Below are positions 8,330-34,768 of a stretch of DNA of 64,000 nucleotides, piece after piece (position 1 is the first letter of the stretch; the number at the start of each line of letters is the position of its first letter). The stretch covers positions 1,216,001 through 1,280,000 of the forward strand of contig CM000152.2 of NCBI GenBank assembly GCA_000004695.1, in the 5' to 3' direction. This DNA is from Dictyostelium discoideum. Taxonomy: Eukaryota. The notes beneath the pieces were generated by a model. The model did no database searches. It was not told where the DNA came from and saw only the letters and a program-made list of their open reading frames with translations. Made by a program: the position numbers and the translations under genes.

Positions 8330-8697
8330 GAGATTGTAGTATTTGTGGATGATATTGATTTTGTAGATGATATTGATTTTGTAGATGATATTGGTTTTGT
8401 AGATGATATTGGTTTTGTAGATGATTTTGGTTTTGTATAGGTATATTGGTTTTGTATATGATATTGGTTTTGGATTAAGTTTTGTTGTGGTTGAGGATTG
8501 GGAAGTGCTGGTAGGTATTGTGACGTTTGAAATGATTCAAACATAAAGTTCTGTTCGTTTATTGCTGATGGAAATTGATAAGTTGAGCTTTGGATTTGAT
8601 TATTATTATTATTATTATTATTTCTACTATATGGATGGTAGGAATGATAACCCGTTTCTACTGTATTATTATTGTTTTTATTGTTATTTATACCCAT
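8203..8697 (-). CDS. low-complexity ORF (poly-N, 18-bp repeat-encoded KPISST units, poly-T) abutting the 526-aa ORF in a different frame; possibly the 5' part of the same gene with a frameshift
   Basis: ATG 8697-8695 verified; TGA at 8205-8203. The next ORF's ATG starts at 8201, leaving 1 nt between them and a frame offset of 1. No room for an intron. Confidence 0.3.
8250..8470 (-). repeat. (GTT)n of about 27 units followed by about 7 tandem copies of an 18-bp minisatellite GATGATATTG(A/G)TTTTGTA (coding poly-Thr and KPISST repeats on the minus strand)
   Basis: Direct reading of 8241-8470. Confidence 0.9.
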
Positions 8698-12741: not shown

Positions 12742-13450
12742 TAAAAATAATAATAATAGTATCACTTTTAATATTCAAAATGATGTAAATAAAACTCAAA
12801 AACAAAATGAAGATTCAATCGTCAAAAATACAGAATATCAAATTCAACATGATGTAGATCAAAATGGTATTCATGAAAATGATAACAATCATAACAATCA
12901 TGATAATGATAACAATGATGACAATGATAACAATGATGACAATGATGATCATTTTGTTTCTGAAGAAGACTATCGTAAATATATAAATAGTGATTCAAAT
13001 CAACAAGATGAAGAATATGAACAAGAATATGACCAACAACTTTATCAACAAGATTATCAACAAGAATATGAACAAGAATATGACCAACAACAAGAAGGAG
13101 AAGAACAAGAAGAACAAGAAGAACAAGAACAAGAAGAACAACAAGAAGAAGAACAAGAACAAGAGGAGGAACAATTAGAATATAATCACAATCATGATGG
13201 TAATGAAGAACAGGAAAATTATCACAATAACCAAGATGATGAAGATGATTATATCAGTGAAGAACAAGATGATTGGAATAATAGCCTCAATTCAAAAAGT
13301 AGTAGTAGATTAAATGGTATACGAAGAAGAGATGATGATGATGATAAAGATAATGATAAAACTCTTGATGATGAATATTTTAATGACAAAGATTTTGAAA
13401 TTAATGTTGACGAGGAAAAAGATGAAGAAAAAGACGACCGAGGTTTATAA
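9451..13450 (+). CDS. large low-complexity coiled-coil protein (about 1130 aa), 2 exons: 9451..10101, 10208..13450
   Basis: ATG 9451. GTATGT donor at 10102 and AG acceptor at 10206-10207 (106-bp AT-rich intron) rejoin the frame with the 10490..13450 ORF, with no stop between 10208 and 10490. Poly-N/Q tracts, heptad-rich central segment (about 11280-12200), acidic EEQ-repeat C-terminus. Confidence 0.7.
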
Positions 13451-13631
13451 ATTATTTTTTTTTTTTTAAAAGGAAAAAAAAACCCTCAAAGAAAACCTCT
13501 AAAAAAAAAAATATATCAAAAAAAAAATATAAAAAATAAAAAAAAAAAACAGTTTTGTTGTACAATTAATATCTCCAATCAATCACGAAATTTCTCACCA
13601 AACGAGATTTTTATTAAAGTCGGTTGGACAA

Positions 13632-13663
<32 letters not shown>

Positions 13664-13685
13664 TCATATCCATATCTTGGCCAAA

Positions 13686-13925
13686 AATTTAGGGAAAAAT
13701 GATTGGTTTGAAAAAAATCCACACATGGTTTAAAAAAAAAAAAAAAATAAAAAATAAATAAAAAATAAAAAAAAATAACAAAATAAAATATCCTAATCAA
13801 ATGATTGGTTTGAAAAAAGTCCACACATGGTTTTAAAAAAAAAAATAATTTTTAATGTCTAAAGTAGGTACATAATACTTTTTTTCTTTTTTTTTTAAAC
13901 CATGTGTGGACTTTAATAAAAAAGG
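13686..13925. repeat. three copies of (A/G)TCCACACATGGTTT(T)AAAAAAA (two direct, one inverted); the direct copies extend 5' as ATGATTGGTTTGAAAAAA
   Basis: Copy 1 at 13691-13730 (+), copy 2 at 13801-13845 (+), inverted copy at about 13890-13920. Lies between the 3' end of the 9451-13450 gene and the ATG at 14143. Confidence 0.7.
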
Positions 13926-14142
13926 CTTTTTAGTTTAATTTTTTTTATTTTTTTTTTAATTTAAATTTTATTTTTATTATCCTTTTTTATAAAAAAAAAA
14001 AAAAAAAAAAAGTAAAGAAAGTAAAAAAAGTATTTTTTAGTAAAGAAACTTTTTTTTACTTTTTTTACTTTTTTTACTTTTTTTTTTACTTTTTTTTTTT
14101 ATTTTAAAATAAATACTTAAATAAATATAAATAATTTTAAAA

Positions 14143-14578
14143 ATGGTTAATAATGATAGAGAGTTATTTTTAAATATAGTTTGGAAAAGAGTAAGAGAAA
14201 AAAAAAAGAAAAAAAATAATAATAAAAAAAAAGAAAAAAAAAAATAATAATTTAACAATTAAACTCAAATTTATTTTTTTATTTATTTTCTTTTATTTTT
14301 TGTCTCTCCCTTATTTTTGTTTTTTTTAGATACATGAAATAACAAAAGAAATATCTATAATTGCTGATAATTTAAGTAAAACAGAAATTTCAAAAGAGGA
14401 AAGGGATTTTTTAAAAAATAATATAACAGAATATGCAAATCAATTAAACAACTACTTAAAAATGGTTGATATTTTAATTAATAATTCAAATGAAAATAAT
14501 TTTCCAAACGAATTATATCAAGAAATTTCATTCAACAAAATTTGCCAAGAAAAGAGTGAATATCGAGTTGGGGAATAA
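14143..14578 (+). CDS. small hypothetical protein (about 97 aa), 2 exons: 14143..14190, 14330..14578
   Basis: ATG 14143. Sixteen codons, then a GTAAGA donor at 14191. TTTTTTTAG acceptor ends at 14329. Second exon is open in phase to TAA 14576-14578 (MVNNDRELFLNIVWKR|IHEITKEISIIADNLSK...EYRVGE*). Confidence 0.45.
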
Positions 14579-14873
14579 TAATATTTTATTGTTTAAAAAG
14601 TGAGAATTCCAATAATTTGGGAAAAAAAAAAATTATTTGTGAAAAAAAATCAAGCAAAAAAAAAAAAAAAAAAAAAAAAATATATATATATAAAATATAT
14701 TATATTTTAATTAATATAATAGTAATAGTAATTTGTATCATTAGTCTAAAAAAAAAAGAAAAAAAAAAGAAAATAAAAATAAAAATAAATTATTTTCGTT
14801 GTTATCCCGAAAAAATAAGACTTTTATTTTTTTTTTTTACTTTTTAGCCAAGAGTCTTTTTTTTCATTAATTT

Positions 14874-16002: not shown

Positions 16003-19000
16003 TTATTGAATTTTATAAACTGTTTTCATGAATTTTAATAATTGAATATCTTGTTTTGTTAAATCTTCAGACCAACCTTCTTTAAGAGCATCCAAAGATT
16101 CACGAGTGATTTTAGACATCCATTGTTTTTTATCATCAAAGTGTCTGTAAATTGTAGTTTTAGTGTTGTTATCATCGATGGCAACAGAGACGACATCATC
16201 TTTTTTGGCGAGGGTAACATCTTTTTCGTTGAGTTTAATACCAATGACTTTACCAACATCAGCGCAATTTGATTCTGGTACACAAATTGGAGTACCAATA
16301 CGAAGAGTACCTTCTTTAACACGAACACCAACAAGAATTGGATTTGAATTTCTGAAAACGTTAGTAACCTCCAAAATACATGGCCAAACACAGATACTAG
16401 CGGTTTCAGCACGAAGTTTCTCTTTGATAGCACCGAAATGTTTCTTTAATTTCTCCTCGAATAAATAGATTGTCTCATCAGAGAGAACTTGAACTTTCAT
16501 TTCATTGGCGGCTTGAATGGCAGATTCTTCAATCTTTACATCGAAAGCCAAGAGAATTGCGTATTTTGGATCCTTATCTAACATGATACTTGCGTTCATA
16601 ATGTGTTTCTTGTGAACTGGACCAATGGCGACATTGGCGACTGGAATCTTGATCTTTTTGAGGAAATTTAAAAAGGCTTCCAAAGAACCAAGAGTAGAGG
16701 CTTGAACAGACACACCAATACCAGAGGTTTCGACATCATTGAGTACAGAATCGACTTCACGTTTAGCTTCGGCTCTAATCTTTTCGATATCGTCATTTGG
16801 ACCAACGACATGAAGTGAAGTACCTGGAACAGCTTTTTCAAGGCCTGGTGCAACGATTTTAATACCCATGGCAGCACGAATACTCTTATGATTGATGAAT
16901 TGTGATTTAACACGAGATTCACGAAGTGGTGGTGGAGTGAGTAAAGAACGAATAGAAGTTTCAATTGGACCATTGAAACCGGATACTACAATCTTATCAC
17001 CTTCATTCAAAGTACCATTTACCAAGACAACATCAATGGTTGTACCAAAACCTTCGATGACTTTAACTTCCAAGAGTGTACATTGGAGTTGATTTGTGAA
17101 TTCTACTTTATCAAGCATTAACTTTTGCATCAATTGAATGACTACCAACATTAAATCTGAAATACCTTCACCAGTGTTGGCAGAGGTTGGTACGAGAGAA
17201 ACGTATTTTCTATGATCTTTATTACGCCAGTAGAGTTCAGCATTCAATTCTTGACCGGCCAAAGCTGCAATGATATCCTTAACTTTGTAATCAAATTCTT
17301 GAGCAGCAGATTTTGATTGAATCTTGTAGGCTTCTTTAAAGTCTGTATTTACACATGGCTTCCAATCGTAAATTCTATCGACTTTATTTAAGGCAACAAT
17401 GAATGGTGTTTTTCTCATACGTAAGAGATTGATGGACTCTAAGGTTTGAGCTTGTAAACCATGCATAATATCAATGACTAAAATTGCCAAATCACAAAGA
17501 CCTGAACCTCTTGAACGTAAATTGTTGAAAGATTCATGACCTGGTGTATCAATGAGTAAGAGACCTGGTAATTTAAAGTCCATTTTAATCTTTTCAGCAA
17601 ATGATTTGGTTTGTTCTTTAATTGCATCGACTGGAATAAAAGAGGCACCAATTTGTTGGGTGATACCACGTGCTTCACCACCTTGAACGTTGGTATTACG
17701 AATTTTATCCAAAAGACTTGTCTTACCTGTATCGACATGACCTAAAATACAAATGATTGGTGAACGATATGATTTATCTGCAAAGGTTGTAGTTGGATCT
17801 GTAGTTGGAATGAGTGCTGCTGCGGCTGCTGCTGCGGCTGCTTTTGCTTTCTTCTTTTCCTCTTTTGCTGCTAATCTCTGTGCTTCCTCTTCCTCCTCTT
17901 TTCTCTTGGCCTCCTCTTCCTTCTTCTTTTGAATCTCTTCAACGGTTTCATAATCATCATTATCCCAACTATCCATAACCTCAACTACGTCGTCCTTTGG
18001 TGCTGATGTTGGTTCTTCAATCTTTAATTTTTCGACTGATTCTGTAATACTTGAGACTTGATTTTGTTTTTTACCTCCACTCTTTGTTTTATTTGTTGAT
18101 TTTTCTTTCTTTTCACCGACTGCTGAAATGTTTACACCCAATTTTGCTAATTTTGCCATTCTATCAGCTTCGGCGGCTGCGCCAGCTTGTTTCTCTTTCT
18201 TTTCTGCTCTCTTTTTAGAGTTTTCAATTGACTTTAATCTTGCTTTTTCATCATCAATAATCTTTTGTTCAGCAGCACGTTTCTTCTCTTCCTCTTCTCT
18301 TATACGTTTTTCCTCCTTTTCACGTGCAATTCTTTCTTCTTCTTGTCTTTGTTTTAATAAAAATCCACTCAATACCTCTGGTTCCTCTGGTTTCTTTGGT
18401 GCTGGTTTTTTAGCTTGTTGTTTTGCTGCTGATGGTTTTGCTGCTGGTGGTTTTTTGGCATTATTTTTTTTATTATTATTATTTTGTGTTGGTTTGGTTG
18501 GTTTCTCTTCTTCCTCTGATGATGATGATTCTTCTTCACTTTCAGAAGATGATTCAACAGCTGCTGCTTTTTTAGCTGGTGCTTTTTTATTTTGTTTTGC
18601 AGCTGGTTTTGATGGTTTCTTTTTTGTGTCCTCTTCAGATGATGATTCTTCAGATTCTGATTCACTCTCTTCTGATGATGATTCTACAACTGGTTTCTTT
18701 TTATTATTATTATTATTGGTTGGTGCTACTTTCTTTGATTGTTTTGCAGCTGGTTTTGATGGTTTCTTTTTAGTATCTTCTTCAGATGATTCTTCAGATT
18801 CTGATTCACTCTCTTCTTCTTCTGATGATGATGATTCTACAACTGGTTTCTTTTTATTATTGGTTGGTGCTACCTTTTTTGATTGTTTAGCAGCTGGTTT
18901 TGATGGTTTCTTTTGAACTTCTTCTTCAGATGATGATTCTTCAGATTCTGATGATGATTCATCTACTGGTGCAAATTTAGAAGTTGGTTTTTTTTTTGAA

Positions 19001-27678: not shown

Positions 27679-28853
27679 TTATTTATCTCTTTTATAAATT
27701 TTTGATAATATTTTTAAAAATACGCTTGGAGGTAAATAAATACAAGTGGTTTTAATTTTATCTATTAAAAAATTGTAACTTGTATTTTCATAATCTTTGA
27801 AAATTTTTTCAAGATTAATTTCTTTATAAATCTTTTTTACAATTTCAACATCAGTTGGATTATCGAAACCATAATGTTTTTTTAATAAATTGATTTGGTC
27901 TGGAGTACCATTGAGAATTGCTTGACAAATCATCCATGAACATTTATTCTCTTCAATATCTCTACCGATTTTACCAAATACTTCTGGTGAACCATAACAA
28001 TCTAAGAAATCATCTTGAACTTGAAAATATACACCCATTGGTAATAAAATATCTTTTGCTGTTGTAAATGCTTGTTCATGGTTTATTTTGGACATTAACA
28101 TTGCTAGTGCAACTGGAAAAAAAAATGAATAATATGCTGTTTTATATTCAGTAATTCTAGTATGACTATAAAAAATAAAATTAATTAATCACACAGACAC
28201 ACATATGTTAATTAAATCTAAAACATATTAATAATAATAAAAATAATAATAATAATTATAAATACAAACTTTTTTAAATTAATTGATGAGAAATCACCTC
28301 TAATTGGTTGAGTTGTTAAATCTAATAATTGACCTAATTGAGTTTGAAATCCGGTTTTATGGAATAATTCTACAATATTTAAATAGTAGGATTCATTTTT
28401 AAAGTATTTTTCAAGTAAAATAAAAACACATGATTCAATTATAAAGGAATCATTAATTGCAGCTAAACCAACTTCTTGATCAGAGTTTGGTCTCTTTTGT
28501 TTATACCAACATGGTTTACCCCTTCTTTTTAGTGACTGATCCATTATATCATCAGAGACCAAATAGCATGCTTGAAATATTTCAACACACCAACCCAATG
28601 TTTGGGCTTGGAAAATTTCATGTCTTGTTAGAGCTCTACCTTCATTTAATGATTCCAATGATTCAAGTACACTAATTCCTCTATTCATTTTTCCACCTGT
28701 TGAATTTGCTTTTATCACGGTTTCAATCCAGTGGATTGATTCTTTTGGAAAATCAATCTTTTCCAATTCCTTTTTAATTTCATTTAATAAAATTGGGAAC
28801 AAATTAGCAAATTCTTCCAAAACTTCTTTATCATTCTTTTTCAAATTATTCAT
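27679..28853 (-). CDS. farnesyl diphosphate synthase paralog (about 356 aa), 2 exons: complement(27679..28165, 28270..28853)
   Basis: GGKMNRG, first Asp-rich motif LVSDDIMD and second Asp-rich motif FQVQDDFLD are all present. The GTTTGT donor at 28269-28268 and TTTTATAG acceptor at 28173-28166 were chosen because they keep ...GDFSSINLKN|HTRITEYKTAYYSFFFPVALAM... collinear with the neighbouring paralog and the FPPS family. ATG 28853-28851 verified. Confidence 0.8.
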
Positions 28854-28902
28854 TTCTTTTTTAAAAAGATAATCTATAAAAAATAAAAAATAAAAAATAA
28901 TA

Positions 28903-28923
28903 ATGATAATTATTATAAATAAA

Positions 28924-28966
<43 letters not shown>

Positions 28967-28980
28967 TAATAATAATAATG

Positions 28981-29041
<61 letters not shown>

Positions 29042-29050
29042 AAATAGAAA
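28903..29050. repeat. (AAT)n microsatellite in the spacer between the two FPPS paralogs
   Basis: Direct reading. Produces the artefactual ORF 28903..29094. Confidence 0.85.
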
Positions 29051-29342
29051 TGATAAAAAAAAATAAGAAATTTAAAGAAAATGAAAATAAATAATTTTTA
29101 ATGCAATTGTAAAAAAAATAATTAAATGTGGATTTAATATTTTATTTTTTTATTTTTTTTATTAGGTGGTATTAATATATAATTAATATTATCCGATAAT
29201 TATTTTTTTAAAAAAAATCTTAATGTGGTTAAAAAGGTTTGTTGTATATAATAATAAGTTTTATTATTATTTGGTAGTTATTGTAATTGAGAATTACTGA
29301 CAGGACTTACTTGTGGGATGACAATATAACCTTTAACAGACT

Positions 29343-29548: not shown

Positions 29549-31206
29549 TTATAAATCTCTTTTATAAATCTTTGATAATAATTTAATGAAAACTTCTTGT
29601 GGCATAATTCTAACTGATTTGATCTTACTGATAAGGAAAGCATAGGATTCATCTTCATAATCTTTGAAGATCTTTTTGAGACCAATTTCACCATAAATCT
29701 TTTTAACTAATTCTACATCAGTTGGATTATCGAGACCATAATGTTTTTTTAATAAATTGATTTGTTCTGGTGTACCATTGAGAATTGCTTGACAAATCAT
29801 CCATGAACATTTATTCTCTTCAATATCTCTACCAATTTTACCAATAACAGCTGGTGAACCATAACAATCTAAGAAATCATCTTGAACTTGGAAGAATTCA
29901 CCCATTGGTAATAAAATATCTTTTGCTGTTGAAAATGCTGGTGTACTAGTAATACCTGCCATTAACATTGCTAATGCAACTGGTAAATAAAATGAATAAT
30001 ATGCAGTTTTATATTTAACAATACGACGATAACTTTTAAATAAAAAAAAAAATATATTAGTATTTTGTATATATAATAAATATTTAATATATATATATAT
30101 ATATATATAATCTAAAAATATATATTTACGTATTTAAAGTGAATAATGAGAAATCACCTCTATTTGGTTGAGTTGTTAAATCTAATAATTGACCTAATTC
30201 AGTTTGATAAGATGTTTCATGGAAAATATCTAAGATATCAGCATAGTATGGTTCATTTCTAAAGTATTTTTTAATGAGGATATAGATGCAAGATTCCAAG
30301 ATGAAAGAATCATTAATTGCAATTGAACCAATGGTACCATTGTTTGAGATTGGATTTGCTTGTCTATACCAACATGGTTGACCTCTACGAGTGATCGATT
30401 GATCCATAATATCATCAGCAACTAAAAAGAATGCTTGAAGCCATTCGACACACCAACCTAAAACATTTGCTAAAAAGATTTCGCTACGTGATAATTGACG
30501 ACCTTCAACTAATAATTGAAGTGAGTGGAGTACGGTGAGACCACGATTCATTTTACCACCTGAAACATTAACATTGATCATCTTTTCAACCCATGCAATT
30601 GTTTGTGGTGGCATGTCCATACCTGGTAATTCCTTTAAGATTTCATTGGTTAAAATTGGGAAAATCTCCACAAAATCTGCTAATTCTTCTTTTGCTGTCT
30701 TTATTGGTGCTGATGTTTGGTTCATGTTTAATTCTAAATATAAAAACAAATATAAAAATATAGAATAAAAAAATAAAAAATAAAAAAAAATAAAAAAATA
30801 AAAAATTGTTTTTTTTTTTTTTAAACAATTAAACAATTTAAAAAAAGAAGGGGTTTTTAAATGGGATAAAAAAAAAAAAAATAAAAAAAAAAATAAAAAT
30901 TTATAAAAAAAAAAATGGGTTAATATTTTTGAGTTAAGGCACAACACAATACAAATAAGGTTATGTAAGTAACATAATAAAAAAAATAAATAAATAAAAA
31001 AAAACAATAAATTTTTTTTTTAACAAAAGAAAATAAAAATAAAAAAATTAAAAATAAAAATTTTATGATTATTAATTTTTTTTTTTTTTTTTTTTTTATA
31101 ATTTAATTAAAAATAGAAAATCTATTAATAGTTTATAATACAAACCTGAAGTTGGAGCTAAGTGTTCAGATATCATAGCAGCTCTTTGGAGTGATTGGTT
31201 GTTCAT
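29549..31206 (-). CDS. fps: farnesyl diphosphate synthase (predicted 382 aa if the 5' mini-exon is used), 3 exons: complement(29549..30032, 30130..30733, 31146..31206)
   Basis: GGKMNRG, LVADDIMD and FQVQDDFLD motifs. The GTAAAT donor (30129) / AAAAG acceptor (30033) give ...FTLNT|YRRIVKYKTAYYSFYLPVALAM. Upstream minus-strand ATG 31206-31204 encodes MNNQSLQRAAMISEHLAPTS. It joins in frame via a GTTTGT donor (31145) and TATTTAG acceptor (30734) to ...ELNMNQTSAPIK. The 412-bp intron makes this first exon less certain (about 0.4). Total 1149 nt = 382 aa, which matches my recollection of Dictyostelium FPS length. Confidence 0.8.
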
Positions 31207-32347: not shown

Positions 32348-34768
32348 AAACAACAAAAACAAAATTTACAAACAAACTCACAAAGACAAGAACAACCAAA
32401 ATTTAAATCATTATTAGATAATGATGGTATATTTTTTGAACAATCAACATTAACTGAAAAAATATTAGCCAAAATGGTTAAAAGAAGAGGTTCAGTTTTA
32501 ATCGATGATCCAGCCAAAATGAAAAGGGAGATGATTATCGAATCATCTACAATTATTCTTCAATCATTCTTTAGAATGATCCATCAAAGAAAAATATATC
32601 AAAGAACAATTAAAGAAAACAAAGAGAGATTGGAAGCTGAACGCCTCGAAAAAGAGAGATTAGAAGCTGAACGCCTCGAAAAAGAGAAATTAGAAGCTGA
32701 ACGTTTGGAAAAAGAGAAATTGGAAGCTGAACGTTTAGAAAAGGAGAGGTTAGAAGCTGAACGTTTTGAAAAAGAGAGATTAGAATCTGAACGTCTCGAA
32801 AAAGAGAGATTAGAAGCTGAACGTCTCGAAAAAGAAAAATTAGAGGCTGAACGTTTGGAAAAAGAGAAATTAGAAGCTGAACGTCTCGAAAAAGAGAGAT
32901 TGGAAGCTGAACGTCTCGAAAAAGAGAGATTAGAAGCTGAACGTCTCGAAAAAGAAAAATTAGAAGCTGAACGTTTAGAAAAAGAGAAATTAGAAGCTGA
33001 ACGTTTGGAAAAAGAGAAATTAGAAGCTGAACGTCTCGAAAAAGAGAGATTAGAGGCTGAACGTTTGGAAAAAGAGAAATTAGAAGCTGAACGTTTAGAA
33101 AAAGAGAGATTAGAAGCTGAACGTCTCGAAAAAGAAAAATTAGAAGCTGAACGTTTGGAAAAAGAAAGAATTGAAAATGAAATATTGGAAGCTGAACGTT
33201 TGGAAAGATTGGAAATGGAAAAAATTGAAATTGAAAGATTGGAAAAACAACGTTTACAAGAGGAACAAATCAAAGAAAAAGAAATGAAAAGATTAGAGAA
33301 AGAAAAAAGATTAGAGCACCAAAAGGAATTGGAAAGACTCGATAGAGAAAGAATAAGAGCCGAACGTTTGGAAAAAGAAAGATTGGAGGCTGAGCGCCTA
33401 GAAAAAGAGAGACTTGTAATAAAGAAATTAAAAAAAGAAAAAGAGATTCAATTAGAAAATGAAAGATTACAATCACTTAAACAAAAACAAAAACAAGAAG
33501 AAGAAGAAGAGGAAGAAGAAGAAGAAGAGGAAGAAGGAGAAGAAGAAGATGATGATGATGAAATTGAAGAAGAAGAAGAGGAAGAACAAAAATCAAATGT
33601 AGAAGAGGGAGAAGAAGAAGAAGAAGAAGAGGAAGAAGAAGATGATGATGAGATTAAACAAGAAGAAGAAGAAGAGGAAGAGGAAGAGGAAGATTCAATA
33701 ATAACTCCAAAAAATTCATCAATAATTAAAGAGGAGGTTACATCAGATATTGAAGAATTAGAAACTGATACATCATTTCAATATTCATCAGCCAACTCTT
33801 CAATGATGACTGCTGATCAAGATGAGGAAGAAGAGGATAAGGATGATAAAAAGAAGAATGAGTCATCAAAAGGTGTAACAAAAACTCATAAAGTTGATGA
33901 TCCAAAAGTATTATCAACAAAATCTTCAACTTTGGCAGCTACTTCCACAAGTAGACAATCTACATTACCAAAAACAACTATTACATCACCAATCAATTCA
34001 TCCTTTTCAAAGAAATCGCCAACTTTATCCACAACTGAAATTGATAGTAAATGGAAAGCAAAAATTGAGTCAATAAAATCAAAAACAACCACTGCATCAC
34101 CAACAACAACATCAACAAAAACTTCACCAACAACAACAACAAAAACAAAAACATCTCCAACAACAAATACATCACCAGTTTTAAAAAGTTCAACTGGTTT
34201 AATTTCAACCCCTCGTGTGATAATGACAAGATCAAAAACAGTTGCTCCACTTCCAGATAAGATTGGTTCTTCAGTTCTTTCAACAAAGAAAAGACCACTT
34301 CAATCTCCTGATACCCAATTGGAAGATCCAAATAAAGTCCAAAGGACCTCAACCAATTTGGCAGCATCAACTAACTTGGCAACAGCATCAATTGAAGAGA
34401 AAAGAAAAAAATTGATCGATTTACAAAATTTAAAGAAAAAAATTACAGAGAAAAGTGTAAATCCTACCACTACCACTACCACCACCAATACTACTCCCAC
34501 TAATAATACGACTACAAAGACAGTTTCTCCAATTCCATCACCAACTTTAACTTCATCAGTTGGCACCAAATCAAAATCTATTCCACCAATTAGTATCACA
34601 TCTAATGCTACAACAACTTCAAATAGATCAACTGCCAGCACACTTTCAACTGTAAAAAGACCAATTGTCAGAAAAACAGCAACAAATCCAAGCTTGGTTT
34701 CTTCAAAAGGTTCTCTCAAAGAACCAATTCCAAAGACTTCATCAACTTCAAAGAAATCAACAAAATAA
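32051..34768 (+). CDS. hypothetical protein (905 aa) with about 17 tandem 11-aa LEAERLEKE(K/R) repeats, poly-E acidic block and Ser/Thr-rich C-terminal half
   Basis: Single ORF, ATG 32051 verified, TAA 34766-34768. Encoded by a 33-bp tandem DNA repeat 32629-33180. Basic IQ-like segment [15 protein letters not shown] precedes the repeats. Confidence 0.75.
32629..33180 (+). repeat. 33-bp coding tandem repeat (about 17 copies) GAAGCTGAACGyyTsGAAAAAGArArATTrGAA encoding LEAERLEKE(K/R)
   Basis: Near-perfect tandem units are visible line after line. Third-position variation (CGCCTC/CGTCTC/CGTTTG) suggests purifying selection on the peptide. Confidence 0.9.

What the first reader, a model, noticed from the sequence alone, without database searches (positions are those of the whole stretch)
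13686..13925. Triplicated CCACACATGGTTT element (two direct, one inverted) upstream of a small gene
ATGATTGGTTTGAAAAAA(A/G)TCCACACATGGTTT(T)AAAAAAA occurs twice, 113 bp apart, on the plus strand. Its 15-nt core recurs once inverted 75 bp further on. The array sits 220-460 bp upstream of the ATG at 14143, in otherwise homopolymeric spacer. A GC-containing 15-mer conserved three times in such a background is a strong candidate transcription-factor binding site or the remnant of a small dispersed element.
Basis: seen in the sequence. Interest (0 to 1): 0.5.

Follow-up and report, generated by a model that had tools for sequence, protein, structure and literature searches.

The report
Young triplicated promoter box, Dictyostelium
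A 14-15-base GC-containing box really does occur three times (two direct, one inverted) upstream of a small uncharacterised Dictyostelium discoideum gene. It is a young, lineage-specific local duplication, most likely a cluster of transcription-factor sites, and is fairly ordinary.

Summary
The window is D. discoideum AX4 chromosome 3. The repeat lies in the 692-bp spacer between an upstream + strand gene (stop at 13450) and DDB_G0278811 (ATG 14143, 98 aa, no known family).

TCCACACATGGTTT occurs exactly three times (13718+, 13820+, 13897-) and nowhere else in about 140 kb examined. The direct units are 102 bp apart, not 113.

Each direct unit pairs an NF-Y-type CCAAT box (AACCAATCA on the minus strand) with the core.

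Orthologous promoters from five other genomes date it:
- c3 is the oldest copy; AAACCAT...CTTTATTTA is present in D. citrinum and D. dimigraforme.
- c1 is an inverted duplicate of c3 placed beside an older CCAAT box.
- c2 is a direct duplicate of c1.
- All three copies are confined to the D. discoideum clade.
- c2 is decaying in the sister genomes.

Within the clade, c1 and c3 keep 12 of 12 G/C sites, against about 60% for the rest of the promoter. Every core substitution hits one position.

Best reading: a homotypic cis-regulatory cluster undergoing turnover (confidence about 0.42). Rivals are a neutral duplication, a c2/c3 hairpin RNA (not in the published miRNA lists searched), and a transposon remnant (largely excluded). 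Function is inferred, not shown.

The parts
13697..13746 (+). Copy c1, a composite unit: AAATGATTGGTTTG (CCAAT box on the minus strand), A7 spacer, core TCCACACATGGTTT (13718-13731), then an A16 run.
   Evidence: (D11). Present in L002 and L004. The CCAAT half is kept in D. citrinum and D. firmibasis.
13700..13708 (-). CCAAT box of c1. It reads AAACCAATCAT on the minus strand and matches RRCCAATSR.
   Evidence: ACCAATCA is conserved at this position in five of six genomes.
13799..13848 (+). Copy c2, a direct duplicate of c1 (94% identity, 102 bp downstream). Core GTCCACACATGGTTT is at 13819-13833, and its CCAAT box is at 13802-13810 (minus strand).
   Evidence: In L002 it carries ATTGG>ATTGA and CCACAC>CCGCAC. 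In L004 the core is deleted. It is absent in D. citrinum, D. firmibasis and D. dimigraforme.
13897..13914 (-). Copy c3, the inverted and founding copy: + strand AAACCATGTGTGGACTTT, preceded by the run T7CT10 (13879-13896).
   Evidence: Orthologous AAACCAT-N6-(A/T)CTTTATTTA is present in D. citrinum and D. dimigraforme.
13816..13914 (.). Potential hairpin or cruciform formed by c2, its A-run, a loop, the T-run and c3 (stem of about 28 bp).
   Evidence: MFE -37.6 and -35.2 kcal/mol for the 136-nt segment on the two strands, z -5.6 and -5.8. L002 z -4.2, L004 z -4.7, D. citrinum z -1.0.
13575..13581 (+). A third CCAATCA heptamer of this promoter, inside the deeply conserved block at about 13550-13631.
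13632..13658 (+). T27 run about 160 nt upstream of the hairpin's 5' arm. It is a possible upstream start-site tract.
   Evidence: Liao et al. 2018 (PMC6161686) describe pri-miRNA and mRNA start sites just after runs of 21-26 T.
13976..14047 (+). Probable core promoter of DDB_G0278811: TATA-like ATTATCCTTTTTTATAAAAA (13976-13995) and the invariant box AAAAAAGTATTTTTTAGTAAAGAA (14024-14047).
   Evidence: Alignment A2. The box is identical in six genomes. Its role as core promoter is inferred.
14143..14579 (+). DDB_G0278811, the presumed regulated gene: exon 1 14143-14190, intron 14191-14329, exon 2 14330-14579; 98 aa.
   Evidence: 100% identity to the AX4 protein. No Pfam family.

Best explanation
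The three copies form a young, lineage-specific cluster of binding sites in the upstream activating region of DDB_G0278811.

Inferred history:
1. An old promoter element, c3 (T-run + AAACCAT...CTTTATTTA), already existed in the ancestor shared with D. citrinum and D. dimigraforme.
2. In the ancestor of the D. discoideum clade, about 34 nt of c3 were copied in inverted orientation next to an older CCAAT box (TGATTGGT). This made the composite unit c1.
3. The composite unit was then copied 100 bp downstream, probably using the pre-existing ATGATT and A-run as microhomologies. This made c2.
4. Gene conversion or template switching has since kept the copies alike. c1 and c2 share derived spacer changes in AX4 and L002. 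An AX4-specific A>T change made c3 a perfect complement of c2.

Inferred function: the CCAAT halves are bound by the NF-Y-type CCAAT factor. The TCCnCACATGGTTT cores are bound by an unidentified sequence-specific factor that does not read position 4. Multiple sites give redundancy, which lets c2 decay in the sister lineages (binding-site turnover).

Shown: the repeat structure, its position, its age, the order of duplication, and the pattern of conservation. Inferred: protein binding, the identity of the factors, and the target gene.
For: Real and non-random:
- Three exact copies, none elsewhere in 64 kb + 75 kb.
- It is the only such inverted repeat in the window.

Position:
- 232-444 bp upstream of the ATG.
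- About 110-330 bp upstream of a 24-nt box that is invariant in six genomes.
- The only gene start facing this spacer is DDB_G0278811.

CCAAT half:
- It matches RRCCAATSR.
- ACCAATCA is kept at c1 in five genomes.
- CCAATCA occurs 1-3 times per orthologous promoter against about 0.03 expected.

Constraint on the cores:
- The 13 fixed core positions show 0 substitutions against 2.7-5.3 expected (P 0.005-0.07).
- 12 of 12 G/C sites in c1 + c3 are invariant, against 59-65% of other G/C sites in the same promoter (P 0.002-0.006).
- All three core substitutions fall on one position.

Wider context:
- CATGG/ACCAT words recur in five of six orthologous promoters at changing positions.
- The whole promoter diverges about half as fast as the neighbouring spacers.
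- History is read from alignment A4 and the L004 c1/c3 arms of 53 nt at 89% complementarity.
Against: - No binding, expression or start-site data were available.
- The full core is absent from the D. citrinum, D. firmibasis and D. dimigraforme promoters.
- c2 is mutated in both boxes in L002 and has lost its core in L004.
- Taken as whole units, the copies diverge at about the background rate: 3-12% against 7.5-13%.
- Concerted evolution makes c1, c2 and c3 non-independent. The constraint P-values could be as weak as about 0.06 (my estimate, 0.62^6).
- The variable position changes more often than the neutral rate predicts, which hints at a mutational mechanism rather than a simple 'free' base.
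- No other promoter among the roughly 25 genes in the window carries the core, so there is no regulon-type support.
Confidence: 0.42

Rival explanations
1. A neutral by-product of local DNA repair or replication. Template switching and ectopic gene conversion between short similar A/T-flanked sequences created an inverted and a direct duplicate. These are drifting and occasionally homogenised, and the duplicated core itself has no function. The older CCAAT box and AAACCAT element may still be functional.
For: - The duplicates are young and clade-restricted.
- c2 decays freely in L002 and L004.
- Whole-unit divergence is about background.
- There are clear signs of concerted evolution: the shared derived spacer TTTGAAAAAAG in c1 and c2 of AX4 and L002; the L004 c1 flank identical to the ancestral c3 flank; and the AX4 change that perfects the inverted repeat.
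- The single hypervariable position changes faster than the neutral rate, as expected of a quasipalindrome hotspot.
Against: - 12 of 12 G/C sites are invariant in c1 + c3, against about 60% elsewhere in the same promoter. This is despite the strong AT mutation bias expected in a 23% G+C genome (window G+C).
- 0 substitutions against 2.7-5.3 expected at the 13 fixed core positions.
- Gene conversion alone does not lower the long-term substitution rate (inference from population genetics).
Confidence: 0.28
2. A young hairpin-RNA or proto-miRNA locus. A transcript through the spacer, perhaps starting after the T27 run at 13632-13658, folds c2 against c3 into a near-perfect stem of about 28 bp that Dicer-like DrnB could process.
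For: - Strong fold on either strand: z -5.6 and -5.8, about -0.35 kcal/mol/nt, which passes the -0.2 criterion quoted by Liao et al. 2018.
- A hairpin persists in L002 and L004 but not in D. citrinum.
- D. discoideum miRNAs are mostly intergenic, species-specific, and transcribed from start sites that follow runs of 21-26 T lying 116-281 nt upstream (PMC6161686; PMC11014262). Here a T27 run lies about 160 nt upstream.
- In every clade genome, c3 plus at least one complementary left arm is retained.
Against: - The core 10-mers are absent from the held supplement text of the two main miRNA catalogues. The tables carry no coordinates, so this negative is only moderate.
- There are no compensatory changes. 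The only varying pair is A-U in AX4, G.A in L002 and C.A for c1/c3 in L004. The flanks of the arms diverged non-complementarily in AX4 and L002.
- Much of the z-score comes from an A-run pairing with a T-run.
- The fold is weaker per nucleotide than all listed D. discoideum miRNA precursors (-0.43 to -1.05).
- There is no G at the position following the T27 run.
- This model does not explain conservation of c1's CCAAT half.
Confidence: 0.13
3. A remnant of a small mobile element (MITE-like, or a 5'-truncated retroelement with a poly(A) tail), with c2 and c3 as terminal inverted repeats.
For: - 18-nt perfect inverted termini lie about 95 bp apart.
- The direct copies end in A-runs.
- D. discoideum has small palindromic thug elements, mentioned in PMC6161686.
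Against: - No other copy exists in 64 kb + 75 kb, and there were no real matches in metagenome contigs.
- There is no target-site duplication: the flanks are AAAAAA and TTTAAT.
- c3 and the interior have orthologous, gradually diverged counterparts in species lacking c1 and c2. L004 keeps the interior without the c2 core.
- Both direct copies start at the same base next to a pre-existing ATGATT, which is unlike independent truncated insertions.
Confidence: 0.05

Closest known systems
Homotypic clusters of transcription-factor sites with binding-site turnover (general promoter evolution)
   Same: - Several copies of one short G/C-containing box, in both orientations, lie within 200 bp upstream of a core promoter.
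- Copies are gained by local duplication and lost in sister lineages, while at least two persist.
- Related short words (CCAATCA, AACCATG) move position between species.
   Different: No factor, binding or expression data exist. The copies are unusually long and identical (15-18 nt exact, 50-nt units), and they show concerted evolution, which is not a usual feature of site turnover.
NF-Y / HAP CCAAT box (consensus RRCCAATSR; established knowledge)
   Same: c1 and c2 read AAACCAATCAT on the minus strand, a full consensus match. The heptamer is strongly enriched and conserved in this promoter across six species.
   Different: It lies about 335-440 bp from the ATG, rather than the -60 to -100 typical of animal promoters. 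I found no paper on CCAAT-box function in Dictyostelium. It accounts for only the left third of the repeat unit.
Dictyostelium GBF G-box / CA-rich element, (T/G)G(T/G)G(T/G)G(T/G) (PMC2257962)
   Same: In AX4 all three cores contain TGTGTGG, a perfect heptamer, in both orientations, in a promoter.
   Different: - The sister-genome copies read TGTGAGG (c3 in L002 and L004) and TGTGCGG (L002 c2). These break the consensus at exactly the variable base, although the copies are otherwise perfectly conserved.
- GBF sites are described as closely spaced pairs, whereas these lie 63-100 bp apart.
- The conserved core extends well beyond the heptamer.
D. discoideum intergenic miRNA hairpins (PMC6161686, PMC11014262)
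   Same: An intergenic, lineage-specific hairpin of about 100 nt, downstream of a long T-run, that passes the folding-energy threshold.
   Different: It is not in the published lists searched. It has no small-RNA evidence and no covariation. The stem is largely A-run against T-run, and it is weaker per nucleotide than the annotated precursors.
Quasipalindrome template-switch mutation / ectopic gene conversion (established mutational mechanisms)
   Same: An imperfect inverted repeat became perfect in AX4 by a single change at the mismatched pair. The paralogous copies share derived changes.
   Different: This explains how the copies stay alike, not why they exist. It is inferred from three genomes only.

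Membership tests
NF-Y-type CCAAT box | Sequence matches RRCCAATSR | tested here: met
   Minus strand at 13700-13708 and 13802-13810: AACCAATCA.
NF-Y-type CCAAT box | Conserved in orthologous promoters | tested here: met
   At c1, ACCAATCA is kept in L002, L004, D. citrinum and D. firmibasis but not in D. dimigraforme. At c2 it is lost in L002 (ATTGA) and L004 (ATTGT).
NF-Y-type CCAAT box | Bound by the NF-YA/B/C trimer and needed for promoter activity | not testable with these tools
   Needs EMSA, ChIP or a reporter assay. I found no Dictyostelium CCAAT-box study.
GBF G-box / CAE | Heptamer (T/G)G(T/G)G(T/G)G(T/G) | tested here: inconclusive
   AX4: TGTGTGG in all three copies. L004 c1: TGTGGGG, which fits. 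L002 c2 TGTGCGG, and c3 in L002 and L004 TGTGAGG, do not fit (consensus from PMC2257962).
GBF G-box / CAE | Two sites closely paired | tested here: not met
   The cores are 102 and 78 bp apart start to start. No second G/T heptamer lies adjacent.
GBF G-box / CAE | Post-aggregative, GBF-dependent expression of the gene | not testable with these tools
   No expression data for DDB_G0278811 were found.
miRNA / hairpin-RNA precursor | Stable hairpin (below -0.2 kcal/mol/nt) with at least 60% of the duplex paired | tested here: met
   About -35 kcal/mol over about 100 nt, with an 18-bp perfect core stem. Criteria as quoted in PMC6161686.
miRNA / hairpin-RNA precursor | Discrete 5p/3p small RNAs with a 2-nt overhang, DrnB-dependent | not testable with these tools
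   No read data were available. The sequence is absent from the held supplements of PMC6161686 and PMC11014262.
miRNA / hairpin-RNA precursor | Pairing preserved by compensatory change in relatives | tested here: not met
   The only varying pair is A-U (AX4), G.A (L002) or C.A (L004 c1/c3). The arm flanks diverged non-complementarily in AX4 and L002.
MITE / TIR transposon remnant | Terminal inverted repeats flanked by a target-site duplication | tested here: not met
   The inverted arms exist, but the flanks AAAAAA and TTTAAT are not a duplication.
MITE / TIR transposon remnant | Multiple dispersed copies | tested here: inconclusive
   None were found in 64 kb + 75 kb, and the metagenome hits were chance. 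The whole AX4 genome could not be scanned with these tools.
MITE / TIR transposon remnant | Clean empty site in relatives that lack it | tested here: not met
   D. citrinum and D. dimigraforme carry a diverged c3 and interior rather than an empty site.
Dictyostelium ncRNA gene with DUSE promoter / Rfam family | DUSE (A/T)CCCA(C/T)AA about 60 nt upstream, or a covariance-model match | tested here: not met
   There is no DUSE in 13400-14200. Rfam gave no hit at gathering thresholds and only chance-level hits at E up to 10. There are no tRNA genes. The DUSE consensus is recalled from my own knowledge.

The most novel reading that the evidence does not exclude
The locus is a miRNA or hairpin-RNA gene caught at birth. 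An inverted duplication of a promoter element, perfected in D. discoideum by a template-switch mutation, created a stem of about 28 bp downstream of a T27 start-site tract. This would show how species-specific amoebozoan miRNAs arise from promoter DNA.
Probability: 0.1. Interest if true: 0.5.

Novelty: new member of a known kind. Interest (0 to 1): 0.2.

Why it matters
If the cores do bind a factor, this promoter is a compact and datable example of cis-regulatory sites created by inverted and then direct micro-duplication, kept alike by gene conversion, and lost again in sister lineages. The organism's AT-rich spacers make such boxes easy to see.

It would also supply a candidate new Dictyostelium motif (TCCnCACATGGTTT) and evidence that CCAAT boxes are used there.

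Practically, it affects one uncharacterised 98-aa gene. Nothing suggests a new kind of system.

Tried and rejected
- **Rfam and tRNA scans.** Gathering thresholds on the whole window, and a permissive scan of 13400-14200, gave nothing meaningful. ARAGORN found no tRNA genes, so a tRNA-targeted retroelement context is unlikely.
- **DUSE ncRNA promoter motif.** None lies near the locus.
- **ATTGGTTT over-representation.** The 21 copies, including the cluster at 8390-8463, turned out to be mostly coding, and that cluster is a minus-strand coding tandem repeat.
- **Literature string searches.** The 10-mers returned only primers from unrelated organisms, and none with Dictyostelium. DDB_G0278811 is not mentioned in any held paper.
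- **miRNA supplements.** No match. The candidate table has no sequences or coordinates.
- **Metagenome scan.** AARTCCNCACATGGTTTAAAA gave three chance hits at 35-43% G+C in unrelated contexts.
- **Conserved block at 13550-13631 as a structured RNA.** Consensus -3.96 kcal/mol with one covarying pair, so rejected.
- **CCAC enrichment.** Only marginal.
- **Not attempted.** I did not translate the repeat into peptides to fish for other genomic copies in the protein database. The sensitivity would be very low for a costly search. The bacterial sigma-70 promoter and terminator scanner is not applicable to this eukaryote.

Full report
**Where we are**

The window is Dictyostelium discoideum AX4 chromosome 3. 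The spliced product of exons 14143-14190 and 14330-14579 is 100% identical to the hypothetical protein DDB_G0278811. The neighbouring 1045-aa ORF is eIF5B.

The finding lies in the 692-bp spacer between the stop of a long + strand gene (13450) and the ATG of DDB_G0278811. This is the only gene start that faces the spacer. The protein has no Pfam family and is not mentioned in any held paper.

**The observation**

- TCCACACATGGTTT occurs exactly at 13718 (+), 13820 (+) and 13897 (-). No further hits appear even with two mismatches allowed.
- From composition I estimate about 1.5e-4 chance copies of this 14-mer per window, so the copies share descent.
- The direct repeat is a 50-nt unit (13697-13746 and 13799-13848) at 94% identity, spaced 102 bp and not 113.
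- The inverted identity is 18 nt exact, at 13816-13833 versus 13897-13914.
- A scan of the whole window for GC-containing short-range repeats finds no other inverted repeat of 13 nt or more. The only comparable direct repeats are coding tandem repeats.

The feature is therefore real and locally unique.

**Anatomy**

Each direct unit has four parts: ATGATTGGTTTG, an A6-7 spacer, (A/G)TCCACACATGGTTT, and an A-run.

- On the other strand the left part reads AAACCAATCAT, a full match to the NF-Y consensus RRCCAATSR (the consensus is established knowledge).
- On the other strand the right part reads AAACCATGTGTGGA. This contains TGTGTGG, which fits the Dictyostelium GBF heptamer (T/G)G(T/G)G(T/G)G(T/G) (PMC2257962).
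- c3 is a core alone, in inverted orientation, preceded by a T-run.

**Comparative evidence**

Using the small protein and eIF5B as anchors, I fetched the syntenic spacer from six further genomes:

| Locus | Genome |
|---|---|
| L001 | second D. discoideum assembly, identical in the region |
| L002, L004 | two 'D. cf. discoideum' genomes |
| L005 | D. citrinum |
| L006 | D. firmibasis |
| L003 | D. dimigraforme |

*State of the copies*
- L002 keeps all three copies. Its c2 has ATTGG>ATTGA and CCACAC>CCGCAC, and its c3 has GTGTGG>GTGAGG.
- L004 keeps c1 (GTCCCCACATGG) and c3 (GTGAGG) but has deleted the c2 core.
- D. citrinum, D. firmibasis and D. dimigraforme have no full core.

*What survives further out*
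- ATGGTTT plus the A-run (on the other strand, T-run + AAACCAT) is invariant in all 12 copies and orthologues aligned (A4).
- c3 is recognisable in D. citrinum (AAACCATttaagaACTTTATTTAAATA) and in D. dimigraforme (AAACCATcaagagTCTTTATTTA).

*Order of duplication*
- In L004, c1 and the reverse complement of c3 share TTTAAATAAAGTCCnCACATGGTTTAAAAAAAAA. The arms are 53 nt at 89% complementarity.
- That flank is the ancestral c3 flank. So c3 is the founder and c1 is an inverted duplicate of it.
- c1 was placed beside a CCAAT box (TGATTGGT) that already existed, as D. citrinum and D. firmibasis show.
- c2 is a direct duplicate of c1. It landed where the outgroups already have ATGATT followed by an A-run.
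- c1 and c2 of AX4 and L002 share the derived spacer TTTGAAAAAAG, which indicates gene conversion.
- The AX4-specific A>T change in c3 turned an A.A mismatch into a perfect c2/c3 complement. That is the signature of quasipalindrome template switching (inference).

**Constraint**

Promoter divergence per site:

| Pair | Substitutions per site |
|---|---|
| AX4-L002 | 0.075 |
| AX4-L004 | 0.134 |
| L002-L004 | 0.121 |

- This is about half the rate of the two neighbouring spacers.
- Taken as whole units, the repeats diverge at about the background rate.
- Inside the core, all three substitutions among the eight surviving copies fall on one position, TCC[N]CACATGGTTT.
- The other 13 positions have none, against 2.7-5.3 expected (P 0.005-0.07 depending on the background used).
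- Restricting to G/C sites avoids misalignment in homopolymers. These sites should also decay fastest in a 23% G+C genome. On that test, c1 + c3 are 12 of 12 invariant across three genomes, against 59-65% for other G/C sites of the same promoter (P 0.002-0.006).

Caveats:
- The copies exchange sequence, so they are not independent. With six effective sites, P is about 0.06 (my estimate).
- Sites identical among paralogues are more likely to be ancestral.
- The variable position changes more often than the neutral rate predicts, which suggests a hotspot.

**Promoter-wide words**

- CCAATCA occurs 1-3 times in each of the six orthologous promoters against about 0.03 expected. In AT-rich parts of the window it is almost confined to this promoter.
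- One box, ATATCCCAATCA in D. citrinum and D. firmibasis, is degenerate in the discoideum clade (CCTAATCA), where c2 supplied a new box.
- CATGG and ACCAT words are also enriched in five of six promoters, at shifting positions.

This pattern is what binding-site turnover looks like.

**Hairpin rival**

For:
- c2, its A-run, a loop, the T-run and c3 fold into a stem of about 28 bp on either strand (z -5.6 and -5.8).
- L002 and L004 also fold well (z -4.2 and -4.7), while D. citrinum does not (z -1.0).
- D. discoideum miRNAs are mostly intergenic and lineage-specific. They are transcribed from start sites that follow runs of 21-26 T, 116-281 nt upstream of the hairpin (PMC6161686). Here a T27 run sits about 160 nt upstream.

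Against:
- The sequence is absent from the held supplements of the two main catalogues. Those tables lack coordinates, so this negative is only moderate.
- There is no compensatory change.
- The arm flanks diverged non-complementarily in AX4 and L002.
- Much of the stability comes from an A-run pairing with a T-run.
- The CCAAT half is left unexplained.

**Mobile-element rival**

- There is no target-site duplication.
- There are no other copies in about 140 kb, and the metagenome hits were chance matches.
- Species that lack c1 and c2 have orthologous diverged sequence in place of an empty site.

The whole AX4 genome could not be searched with these tools, so this test remains open.

**Verdict**

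The element is a young, clade-restricted micro-duplication family in the DDB_G0278811 promoter. It was built from an older AAACCAT element and an older CCAAT box.

| Reading | Confidence |
|---|---|
| Redundant cluster of factor-binding sites undergoing turnover | about 0.42 |
| Neutral duplication kept alike by conversion | about 0.28 |
| Nascent hairpin RNA | about 0.13 |
| Transposon remnant | about 0.05 |

This is a new instance of a known kind of feature, of modest interest.

Noticed in passing
window 13550-13631: An 80-nt block about 100 nt past the stop codon of the upstream gene is conserved in all six dictyostelid genomes, more deeply than the repeat itself. It contains a CCAATCA heptamer. 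Consensus folding gives no support for a structured RNA (-3.96 kcal/mol, one covarying pair). It could be a 3'-UTR or polyadenylation element, or a distal promoter element.
   Followed up: partly
window 13976-14047: The TATA-like ATTATCCTTTTTTATAAAAA (13976-13995) is conserved in five of six genomes. The 24-nt box AAAAAAGTATTTTTTAGTAAAGAA (14024-14047) is invariant in all six. This is probably the core promoter of DDB_G0278811.
   Followed up: partly
window 13988-14032 and 14057-14101: A second inverted repeat has 45-nt arms at 91% complementarity, (A7GT)n against (ACT7)n, bracketing the invariant box. It draws weak, chance-level Rfam miRNA-family hits (E 0.2-5).
   Followed up: no
window 13721, 13823, 13907 (position 4 of the core): A single hypervariable base: A/A/A in AX4, A/G/T in L002, C/deleted/T in L004. 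The 13 other core positions never change. It varies faster than the neutral rate predicts and remains unexplained; it may be a free base or a quasipalindrome hotspot.
   Followed up: partly
window 13791-13798 vs L005 and L006: ATATCCCAATCA, a forward CCAAT box in D. citrinum and D. firmibasis, is ATATCCTAATCA in AX4 and L004 and ATATCCTAACCA in L002. The box was lost in the same clade that gained the c2 CCAAT box next to it.
   Followed up: partly
window 8360-8470; 18590-18940; 32600-33210: Coding tandem repeats: an 18-nt period in a minus-strand gene, units of about 147 nt in the acidic N-terminus of eIF5B, and a 30-nt period (repeats of ...AGAAGCTGAACGTCTCGAAAAAGA...). They explain most short-range direct repeats and the apparent ATTGGTTT enrichment.
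   Followed up: partly
window 29651-30458 vs 28000-29179 (L001 585-1396): A second, 79%-identical copy of the polyprenyl-synthase-like gene lies next to the first. This looks like a diverged tandem gene duplicate.
   Followed up: no
L001, L004, L005 (orthologues of window 14143-14579): The DDB_G0278811 orthologue is intact in these assemblies but is not among their called genes. The D. dimigraforme model is 154 aa against 98 aa. Annotation of this small gene is inconsistent.
   Followed up: no
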